Shown here piece after piece: positions 2,231 to 2,373 of a stretch of DNA of 4,439 nt. Made by a program: the position numbers and the translations under genes. How positions within the stretch are numbered: the stretch's first letter is position 1; every line of letters starts with the position of its first letter. The stretch lies in IMG/VR virus record IMGVR_UViG_3300029157_000003, one strand, 5' to 3'. This DNA is from a virus (lineage: Duplodnaviria; Heunggongvirae; Uroviricota; Caudoviricetes). The notes under the pieces are model-generated. The model had not been told where the DNA came from. It saw only the letters and a program-made list of their open reading frames with translations, and did no database searches.

Positions 2231-2251
2231 GTTAATTGTTAACTGGTTAAC
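2231..2251. repeat. Three closely spaced GTTAA(T/C) repeats (includes two GTTAAC palindromes) just upstream of a GGAGG
   Basis: GTTAAT 2231-2236, GTTAAC 2238-2243, GTTAAC 2246-2251; strong SD-like GGAGG at 2259-2263; sequence is then interrupted by the N run. Possible regulator-binding site / translation initiation region of a gene whose start lies in the gap. Confidence 0.3.
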
Positions 2252-2273
2252 GTCACCTGGAGGCACCAGGCAC

Positions 2274-2373
2274 NNNNNNNNNNNNNNNNNNNNNNNNNNN
2301 NNNNNNNNNNNNNNNNNNNNNNNNNNNNNNNNNNNNNNNNNNNNNNNNNNNNNNNNNNNNNNNNNNNNNNNNN
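2274..2373. other. Run of exactly 100 N: assembly gap or masked sequence
   Basis: Literal n characters. The true length and content are unknown, so reading frame across it cannot be trusted. Confidence 0.99.

What the first reader, a model, noticed from the sequence alone, without database searches (positions are those of the whole stretch)
2231..2373. Gene start apparently lost in a 100-N gap
A strong SD-like GGAGG (2259-2263), preceded by three GTTAA(T/C) repeats, lies 10 nt before the N run, and the long frame is already open at the first base after it. The 5' end of the large gene, and possibly additional small genes (racC- or ydaE-like in a Rac layout), may be hidden in the gap. Exactly 100 N is a conventional placeholder, so the true length and frame are unknown.
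Basis: partly seen in the sequence, partly recalled or inferred. Interest (0 to 1): 0.35.

Follow-up and report, generated by a model that had tools for sequence, protein, structure and literature searches.

The report
Assembly gap hiding dicB and ydfD
The 100-N run is an assembly placeholder inside the well-known dicF-dicB operon of a defective lambda-like prophage of E. coli. In near-identical finished genomes it stands for 775 bases carrying the small genes dicB and ydfD and the first 91 codons of the large exonuclease gene, so what is hidden is ordinary.

Summary
There are exactly 100 N (2274-2373), GGAGG lies at 2259-2263, three GTTAAY copies lie at 2231-2251, and a reading frame is open from 2374 to the window end.

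The window is the immunity and early-left region of a Qin-type (dicBF) lambdoid prophage: repressor, promoter, ydfA, ydfB, ydfC, DicF RNA, [gap], exonuclease. The closest complete genome differs at 2 of 4339 bases. There the flanks lie 775 bp apart. That stretch holds 33 nt of dicB leader, dicB (62 aa), ydfD (63 aa), a 92-nt spacer and codons 1-91 of an 823-aa exonuclease. Window base 2374 is the first base of codon 92.

A ranked sample of 3498 complete E. coli genomes gives 770-776 bp with the same genes.

GGAGG is not a ribosome-binding site. It lies 43 nt upstream of the dicB ATG, which has its own GAGG. It forms the stem and loop of a hairpin (CCUGG-AGGCA-CCAGG) that is the signature of the prophage RNA family STnc100. 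The GTTAA copies are the arms and loop of the neighbouring hairpin.

This is a known locus with an assembly artefact, so interest is low.

The parts
1..316 (-). 3' part of a YdaT-family (cII-position) gene, cut by the window start
   Evidence: Annotated 'toxin YdaT family protein' in L002 at 2795-3316 (L002 coordinate = window + 3000). Weak Pfam YdaT_toxin match, E = 8e-4, below the cut-off.
300..527 (-). Cro-type regulator gene (dicC position)
   Evidence: Pfam P22_Cro, 59.3 bits. Annotated Cro/CI family or DicC in relatives.
605..1012 (+). Prophage repressor gene (dicA position), HTH_3
   Evidence: Pfam HTH_3, 56.7 bits. Annotation in L002.
1100..1128 (+). Promoter-like site for the early-left (dicB-type) operon, flanked by operator-like 9-mers at 1080-1088 and 1115-1123
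   Evidence: TTGACG-17-TAAATT. AGTTTTCTC occurs 4 times against 0.07 expected. This corresponds to dicBp of PMC10448788 by position only (inference).
1205..1360 (+). ydfA (DUF1391)
   Evidence: Pfam DUF1391, 98.5 bits. Annotation.
1362..1490 (+). ydfB
   Evidence: Annotated ydfB in L001 and L002.
1520..1738 (+). ydfC
   Evidence: Annotated ydfC in L002 and in the hits.
2081..2132 (+). DicF small RNA, including its terminator hairpin; the U tract follows at 2133-2137
   Evidence: Rfam RF00039, 76.7 bits (gathering score 48), full length 1-52.
2133..2273 (+). 5' three quarters of the dicB leader, a divergent STnc100-type structured RNA domain cut by the gap. Predicted helices: P1 5' strand 2133-2160 (core 2153-2160), P2 2164-2179, middle helix 2180-2227, Pd 2228-2254, Pe 2256-2270, first 3 nt of the P1 3' strand 2271-2273
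   Evidence: Rfam STnc100 partial match 2158-2273, 28.8 bits. Full-length match in L002, 38.7 bits. Predicted folds. Covariation in 107 relatives.
2228..2254 (+). Hairpin Pd, which contains the three GTTAAY copies: 5' arm, loop and 3' arm
   Evidence: Inverted repeat CGTTAA/TTAACG. Ten-pair stem in the minimum-energy fold. A hairpin stands at this position in all 107 relatives, with 78 different 5' arms, mean contiguous stem 6.5 pairs against 4.4 in shuffles.
2256..2270 (+). Hairpin Pe, CCUGG-AGGCA-CCAGG.
   Evidence: Rfam alignment. Fold. The third pair is G-C in 97, U-A in 9 and A-U in 1 of 107 elements.
2274..2373 (.). Assembly gap, 100-N placeholder. In relatives it stands for about 775 bp: 33 nt of leader (P1 3' strand plus the dicB SD), dicB, ydfD, a 92-nt spacer and codons 1-91 of the exonuclease
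2374..4439 (+). Codons 92-779 of an 823-aa exonuclease gene (ydfE position) with a C-terminal Rv2179c-like 3'-5' exonuclease domain; it runs off the window end
   Evidence: Base 2374 corresponds to offset 273 in the L002 CDS 5776-8247, that is 91.0 codons. Pfam PF16473, 164 bits. Annotated exonuclease.

Best explanation
The N run is a scaffolding placeholder in a draft assembly. It lies inside the dicBF-type early-left operon of a Qin-like lambdoid prophage of E. coli.

In the real genome it most likely stands for about 775 bp, in this order:
- the last 33 nt of the dicB 5' leader;
- dicB (62-aa cell-division inhibitor);
- ydfD (63 aa, DUF1482, lysis protein), overlapping dicB by 4 nt;
- a 92-nt spacer with its own GAGG;
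- the first 91 codons of an 823-aa exonuclease, whose codon 92 starts at window base 2374.

The GGAGG just before the gap is not a translation signal. It belongs to the terminal hairpin of a divergent STnc100-type RNA domain that lies between the DicF terminator and dicB. The GTTAA copies are the adjacent hairpin.

Functional reading (published for K-12, transferred here by homology): the repressor keeps the promoter at about 1100 off. When the promoter fires, most transcripts end at the DicF terminator, and read-through transcripts cross this leader into dicB-ydfD.

Inferred only: the leader folds into a five-helix junction closed by a 28-bp helix, whose 3' strand lies in the gap and runs into the dicB SD.
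For: - The closest complete genome (NZ_CM129038.1, L002) differs from the window at 1 + 1 positions over 2273 + 2066 bases. It has 775 bp between the flanks.
- At least 15 listed genomes carry that 775-bp stretch at 100% identity.
- 25 of the 30 best whole-window hits span 5114 bp, which corresponds to a 775-bp gap.
- 3498 of 5426 complete E. coli genomes have both flanks in one place. Sampled full-span places span 1570-1576 bp, giving a gap of 770-776 bp. Every sampled place that holds both flanks is annotated dicB + ydfD/DUF1482 + exonuclease.
- Pfam gives DicB 124.9 bits and DUF1482 88 bits for the two ORFs in the gap, and Rv2179c-like 164 bits for the window ORF.
- Frame check: base 2374 is the first base of codon 92.
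- DicF scores 76.7 bits at 2081-2132.
- In L002, GGAGG is 43 nt from the dicB ATG. Only two TTG codons lie between, followed by 4-5 codons.
- STnc100 alignments and covariation support the hairpins. Most loci found with the hairpin motif score 48-107 bits against RF02076.
- The published operon model, with a 1146-nt ydfABC-dicF transcript and a 1608-nt ydfABC-dicFB-ydfD transcript, is in PMC10448788.
Against: - The gap content is inferred from relatives, not read from this strain.
- Roughly a quarter of E. coli genomes that carry one flank do not have the other flank next to it (rows H152-H156). Other junctions therefore exist in the species.
- One of the 30 best whole-window hits (H75) spans 5712 bp in three pieces, so insertions in this region occur.
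- The cause of the assembly break could not be tested.
- The leader scores below Rfam's gathering score for STnc100 (38.7 against 47).
- The fold of the 126-nt core alone is only marginally better than shuffles (z = -1.88).
Confidence: 0.9

Rival explanations
1. One reading: GGAGG at 2259-2263 is the ribosome-binding site of a gene whose start codon lies in the first bases of the gap. That gene would be either the large gene itself or a small racC- or ydaE-like gene of a Rac-type prophage.
For: GGAGG is a perfect SD core, and the frame after the gap is open. The dicB frame is mechanically open from a GTG at 2202 through the GGAGG. A YdaT-family gene, as in Rac, lies on the other arm.
Against: - In all near-identical genomes the 43 nt after GGAGG hold no ATG, GTG or TTG at SD spacing. 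The only starts are two TTG codons, 26 and 29 nt away, with 4-5 codon ORFs.
- The 10 nt after GGAGG (CACCNGGCAC) are fixed by the motif used to find the family members and contain no start codon.
- The GGAGG is base-paired or in a 5-nt loop of a hairpin, with a compensatory pair change.
- The hidden genes match Pfam DicB and DUF1482.
- The flanking genes are ydfA/B/C and DicF.
- The exonuclease's only Pfam match is Rv2179c-like, so no RecE-family match was found.
Confidence: 0.03
2. In this particular strain the gap holds something other than the canonical 775 bp. For example, an insertion sequence or extra cargo could have been inserted into dicB, ydfD or the 5' end of the exonuclease gene, or part of that segment could be deleted.
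For: - Repeated elements such as IS copies are a common cause of short-read assembly breaks (general knowledge).
- One of the 30 best hits (H75) spans about 600 bp more, in three pieces.
- Some genomes have only one of the two flanks.
Against: - The contig ends do not abut. They stop 775 bp apart in relatives, which is not what a simple insertion produces, because contigs normally run up to the inserted repeat.
- All 25 hits with at least 99.8% identity to the window have the same span.
- At least 15 genomes carry the identical 775 bp.
Confidence: 0.06
3. The scaffold join is wrong or the gap has zero true length: the two contigs would come from different prophages, or would overlap.
For: The dicF-dicB module is multi-copy in E. 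coli: median 2 and up to 10 places per genome. Mis-scaffolding between prophages is therefore conceivable.
Against: - Both flanks, in this order and orientation, match single contiguous loci at 99.8-100% in more than 20 complete genomes.
- The flank ends share no overlap. They lie in different features: the dicB leader and codon 92 of the exonuclease.
Confidence: 0.01

Closest known systems
[quoted passage not shown]
   Same: - Same gene order on both sides of the gap.
- A full-length DicF match.
- K-12-derived genomes give the same joined place with a 774-bp gap equivalent, annotated dicB, ydfD and exonuclease (H116-H119).
- Divergent repressor and Cro genes with repeated operator-like 9-mers.
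   Different: - In the closest genome the prophage's int and xis lie next to ompW.
- The exonuclease gene is intact there, at 823 aa.
- The gene in the cII position is YdaT-family, as in Rac.
- The repressor is annotated only as an HTH protein in most relatives.
   Same: Both are lambdoid early-left operons with small, partly toxic genes upstream of a large exonuclease gene. A YdaT-family gene lies on the opposite arm.
   Different: No racC, ydaE, kilR or recT is annotated in the window or in the relatives' gap sequence. The exonuclease's only Pfam match is an Rv2179c-like 3'-5' exonuclease domain, with no RecE-family match. DicF and ydfA/B/C mark the Qin type.
STnc100 (Rfam RF02076), a prophage-encoded small RNA family structurally related to PasD (bioRxiv 10.64898/2026.05.13.724894)
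   Same: - Same order of helices: a closing helix GYGGUG/CACCRC, the spacer AAU, a hairpin with a UNNGC loop, a variable middle, a variable hairpin, then the near-invariant CACCNGGAGGCACCNGGCAC hairpin.
- Loci found with that hairpin motif are mostly RF02076 members above the gathering score.
   Different: - The score is 38.7 bits, below the gathering score of 47.
- The stem of the second hairpin is swapped (GCGGC/GC-CGC instead of CCCCC/GG-GGG).
- The closing helix is 28 bp instead of 6-9 bp.
- There is no promoter or terminator of its own. It sits inside an operon and is followed by an ORF (dicB), not by a linker and terminator.
Shine-Dalgarno ribosome-binding site
   Same: The pentamer GGAGG is complementary to the 3' end of 16S rRNA (established knowledge).
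   Different: There is no start codon at 5-10 nt in relatives. The true start is 43 nt away and has its own GAGG. The pentamer is partly base-paired in a conserved hairpin.

Membership tests
Qin-type dicBF operon | DicF RNA between ydfC and dicB | tested here: met
   RF00039, 76.7 bits against a gathering score of 48, window 2081-2132, downstream of ydfC at 1520-1738.
Qin-type dicBF operon | ydfA, ydfB and ydfC upstream of DicF on the same strand | tested here: met
   Pfam DUF1391, 98.5 bits, for 1205-1360. ydfB and ydfC are annotated at the matching positions in L001 and L002.
Qin-type dicBF operon | dicB and ydfD genes downstream of DicF | not testable with these tools
   They would lie in the N run. 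In relatives with 99.8-100% identical flanks they are present: Pfam DicB 124.9 bits and DUF1482 88 bits.
Qin-type dicBF operon | Divergent repressor and Cro pair with a repressible promoter upstream of ydfA | tested here: met
   HTH_3 repressor at 605-1012, P22_Cro at 300-527 on the - strand. Promoter-like sites at 1100-1128 (+) and 583-554 (-). Four operator-like 9-mers. Repression itself was not tested.
STnc100 (RF02076) | Score at or above Rfam's gathering score (47 bits) | tested here: not met
   28.8 bits for the truncated copy in the window. 38.7 bits for the complete copy in L002. Other loci with the same hairpin score 48-107 bits.
STnc100 (RF02076) | Family architecture: closing helix, UNNGC hairpin, variable hairpin, CCNGG-AGGCA-CCNGG hairpin | tested here: met
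   The Rfam alignment covers model positions 1-206 in L002. The minimum-energy fold reproduces the helices. Compensatory changes occur in P1, P2 and Pe across 107 elements. Hairpin Pd is kept with 78 different 5' arms.
STnc100 (RF02076) | Independent small RNA gene (own promoter and terminator) | tested here: not met
   In the window it starts right after the DicF terminator, and in relatives it is followed by the dicB ORF. Stand-alone members are followed by terminator-like hairpins with T runs.
Shine-Dalgarno site | Start codon of a real ORF 5-10 nt downstream | tested here: not met
   Not visible in the window, because only 10 nt (CACCAGGCAC, no start codon) precede the gap. In L001 and L002 the first ORF-bearing start is the ATG at +43.
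Shine-Dalgarno site | Accessible (unpaired) purine-rich core | tested here: inconclusive
   The first two G are predicted paired, and AGG lies in a 5-nt loop. This is prediction plus covariation only, with no probing data.
Rac prophage layout | racC, ydaE or kilR upstream of recE | tested here: not met
   The annotated genes in the corresponding stretch of relatives are dicB and ydfD. The exonuclease's only Pfam match is PF16473 (Rv2179c-like), with no RecE-family match.

The most novel reading that the evidence does not exclude
The dicB leader cut by the gap is a co-opted STnc100-type RNA domain. The family is otherwise known only as stand-alone prophage small RNAs of unknown function. In the mRNA-leader subtype the closing helix is lengthened to 20-28 bp, and it covaries between Escherichia, Citrobacter, Lelliottia, Scandinavium and Buttiauxella. 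This helix could act as a cis gate, through RNase III cleavage or control of ribosome access, that limits expression of the toxic DicB after read-through of the DicF terminator. That would give the first cis-regulatory role, and a functional handle, for this widespread domain.
Probability: 0.2. Interest if true: 0.45.

Novelty: already known. Interest (0 to 1): 0.07.

Why it matters
It matters little for biology. The locus is the long-studied dicBF operon, and the gap is an assembly artefact. There are two practical points. First, an annotator should not call a truncated exonuclease gene or a new start here, and should expect dicB and ydfD once the gap is closed. Second, a perfect GGAGG in front of a gap is not evidence of a gene start: here it is the signature hairpin of a structured prophage RNA. 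The only part with open questions is that RNA domain (STnc100-type), whose function is still unknown.

Tried and rejected
1. Exact string matching of the flanks in L002 failed because of one SNP in each flank. I redid it with 60-nt anchors.
2. I wanted to test whether the break is repeat-induced by finding the second copy of the module in the closest genome (two places in NZ_CM129038.1). The search tool lists only the best place per record, so the cause of the break remains an inference from copy numbers.
3. I considered SD sequestration as the role of the long leader helix. In E. coli the dicB GAGG pairs only weakly, through three G-U pairs with the DicF U tract. In Citrobacter and Lelliottia leaders the SD lies outside the helix. 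I therefore do not claim it.
4. I considered the long helix as the published RNase III site. The paper places the known RNase III cut upstream of DicF, at the 5' end of the 190-nt species, not in this leader. RNase III cleavage here is therefore only a hypothesis.
5. MAFFT plus RNAalifold did not recover hairpin Pd because its sequence varies. I measured it with a script instead.
6. The extended 97-aa ORF from the GTG at window 2202 in the dicB frame was rejected as a gene. Pfam DicB covers residues 1-62 of the 62-aa product, and the extension runs through the structured RNA.
7. The long antisense ORFs across the gap sequence are not annotated in any record and were not pursued.

Full report
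OBSERVATION. The window holds one run of N, at 2274-2373, exactly 100 long, and no other N. GGAGG lies at 2259-2263, and 10 nt (CACCAGGCAC) separate it from the gap. GTTAAT lies at 2231-2236, and GTTAAC at 2238-2243 and 2246-2251. From base 2374 a frame is open for 688 codons to the window end. The description is therefore accurate. GGAGG as a word is not enriched: 5 matches on both strands against 5.46 expected. The GTTAA copies are not independent direct repeats. GTTAAC is a palindrome, and CGTTAA (2230-2235) and TTAACG (2247-2252) are the arms of an inverted repeat.

WHAT THE WINDOW IS. On the - strand lie the 3' part of a YdaT-family gene (1-316) and a P22_Cro-type gene (300-527). On the + strand lie:
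- an HTH_3 repressor (605-1012);
- a promoter-like site, TTGACG-17-TAAATT (1100-1128);
- ydfA (DUF1391, 1205-1360), ydfB (1362-1490) and ydfC (1520-1738);
- a full-length DicF RNA (RF00039, 76.7 bits, 2081-2132);
- the gap;
- a large ORF with a C-terminal Rv2179c-like 3'-5' exonuclease domain.

This is the immunity and early-left region of a Qin-type (dicBF) lambdoid prophage of E. coli. The 534 bases left of the gap occur in 4721 of 5426 complete E. coli genomes. The 727 bases to its right occur in 4006.

WHAT THE GAP STANDS FOR. The best whole-window match is NZ_CM129038.1 (locus L002). It differs at one base in each flank, out of 2273 + 2066 bases, and has 775 bp between the flank ends. Twenty-five of the 30 best hits, all at 99.8-100% identity, span 5114 bp, which gives the same 775 bp. 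The 775-bp stretch of L002 is 100% identical in at least 15 listed complete genomes.

I also searched with 400 bases on each side of the gap and listed records at even steps down the ranking. In that search 3498 genomes hold both flanks in one place. Every sampled full-span place spans 1570-1576 bp, giving a gap of 770-776 bp. Every sampled place that holds both flanks is annotated dicB, ydfD/DUF1482 and exonuclease.

In L002 the stretch reads as follows:
- 33 nt of leader;
- dicB (5307-5495, 62 aa, Pfam DicB 124.9 bits);
- ydfD (5492-5683, 63 aa, DUF1482 88 bits, overlapping dicB by 4 nt);
- a 92-nt spacer ending in GAGGTAAAACAAAATG;
- the first 273 nt of an 823-aa exonuclease CDS (5776-8247).

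Window base 2374 corresponds to offset 273 of that CDS, which is exactly 91 codons, so the frame fits.

WHAT THE GGAGG AND GTTAA COPIES ARE. In L001 and L002 the GGAGG is 43 nt upstream of the dicB ATG, which has its own GAGG 8 nt before it. Between the two there are only two TTG codons, followed by 4-5 codons. So the GGAGG is not the ribosome-binding site of dicB, and certainly not that of the large gene.

Rfam aligns window 2158-2273 to positions 35-143 of STnc100 (RF02076, 28.8 bits), cut off by the gap. With the gap filled, L002 5130-5339 matches the whole model at 38.7 bits, below the gathering score of 47. In that alignment the GGAGG lies in the hairpin CCUGG-AGGCA-CCAGG, whose consensus is CCGGG-AGGCA-CCCGG. 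That difference is a compensatory G-C to U-A change.

A scan of one genome per species for CACCNGGAGGCACCNGGCAC returned more than 120 loci, nearly all from Enterobacterales. In the low-GC loci the two free positions form a Watson-Crick pair in 121 of 123 cases. In the high-GC loci, which are chance matches, they mostly do not. Of 18 such loci scanned, most elements reach 48-107 bits against RF02076. The motif is therefore the signature hairpin of that family.

An alignment of 107 distinct elements (A1) gives these helices:
- a closing helix, GYGGUG/CACCRC, in which one pair is U-A in 59, C-G in 40 and U-G in 7 elements;
- a second hairpin with 24 and 29 double changes at two pairs; the E. coli dicB type has GCGGC/GC-CGC where most have CCCCC/GG-GGG;
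- the terminal hairpin.

The hairpin just before the terminal one varies in sequence: 78 different 5' arms, mean contiguous stem 6.5 pairs against 4.4 in shuffles. In the window it is 2228-2254. GTTAAT sits in its 5' arm, the first GTTAAC in its loop and the second GTTAAC in its 3' arm.

HOW IT MOST LIKELY WORKS. Shown for K-12 in PMC10448788: DicA represses dicBp. [quoted passage not shown] A 1146-nt ydfABC-dicF species and a 1608-nt ydfABC-dicFB-ydfD species exist, so part of the transcription reads through the DicF terminator into dicB-ydfD.

Transferred here by homology, the promoter at about 1100 drives ydfABC-DicF, and read-through transcripts cross the leader at 2133-2273 and beyond into dicB.

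Predicted only: the leader folds into a five-helix junction. It is closed by a 28-bp helix between 2133-2160 and the first roughly 30 nt hidden in the gap. The 198-nt leader of L002 folds at -70.4 kcal/mol, z = -5.65. Leaders of this type in other genera also have closing helices of 20-24 bp with different sequences, whereas stand-alone STnc100 copies have 6-9 bp. I do not know what the helix does. SD masking is weak and not conserved, and the published RNase III site lies elsewhere.

WHY THE ASSEMBLY BROKE HERE. This could not be tested. The module is multi-copy in E. coli, with a median of 2 and up to 10 places per genome. A second near-identical copy in another prophage is therefore the likely reason (inference). 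By convention, 100 N marks a gap of unknown length (general knowledge).

COMPARISON AND VERDICT. The locus is a member of the known Qin-type dicBF operon. DicF, ydfABC, the repressor/Cro pair and the exonuclease were tested and met. dicB and ydfD can only be inferred. It does not have a Rac layout. The leader works like, and is homologous to, STnc100, but fails that family's score threshold and is not an independent sRNA gene. So I call it STnc100-like. The STnc100 literature treats the family as a prophage sRNA of unknown function, related to PasD. The finding itself is an assembly artefact over known genes, so interest is low.

Noticed in passing
L003-L122 (e.g. L052:890-2010, L076:110-1690, L098:3717-5512): The hairpin CACCGGGAGGCACCCGGCAC is almost invariant in STnc100 elements across many genera of Enterobacterales: Escherichia, Salmonella, Citrobacter, Enterobacter, Kosakonia, Pantoea, Erwinia, Rahnella. 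Elements often stand in tandem, for example four copies within 1.2 kb on a Pantoea plasmid and four in a Superficieibacter contig. They also often lie next to tRNA genes. Why 20 nt are frozen while every other helix covaries is unexplained.
   Followed up: partly
L010:4804-4860, L014, L071, L117, L119 (upstream of the elements): By eye, stand-alone STnc100 copies have sigma-70-like -35 and -10 hexamers placed so that transcription would start at or next to the first base of the closing helix. The 5' end of the RNA would then be base-paired. A 20-50 nt linker and a terminator-like hairpin follow the domain.
   Followed up: no
window 2133-2160 plus L002:5271-5302; L004, L017, L024, L067, L087: In the copies that precede an ORF (mRNA-leader subtype) the closing helix is 20-28 bp instead of 6-9 bp, and its sequence differs between genera. 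It is a candidate double-strand RNase substrate or clamp, and I found no report of it in the papers I read.
   Followed up: partly
window 544-552 (+), 611-619 (-), 1080-1088 (+), 1115-1123 (-): Four exact copies of AGTTTTCTC (0.07 expected) bracket the two divergent promoter-like sites. They are probably the operator half-sites of the prophage repressor.
   Followed up: partly
window 2202-2273 (+), L002:5202-5495: The dicB reading frame is mechanically open for 35 codons upstream of its ATG, from a GTG at window 2202 and straight through the structured leader. It is probably meaningless but could mislead gene callers.
   Followed up: partly
L002:8312-10352: In the closest complete genome the prophage's excisionase and integrase genes lie directly next to ompW. 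This element therefore does not sit at the K-12 Qin position.
   Followed up: no
L029:3236-3424: In a Shigella flexneri prophage the same leader type is followed, within 100-300 nt, by isrK (61.5 bits) and C4 antisense RNA (75.7 bits) matches instead of dicB. Different cargo modules are thus joined to this leader.
   Followed up: no
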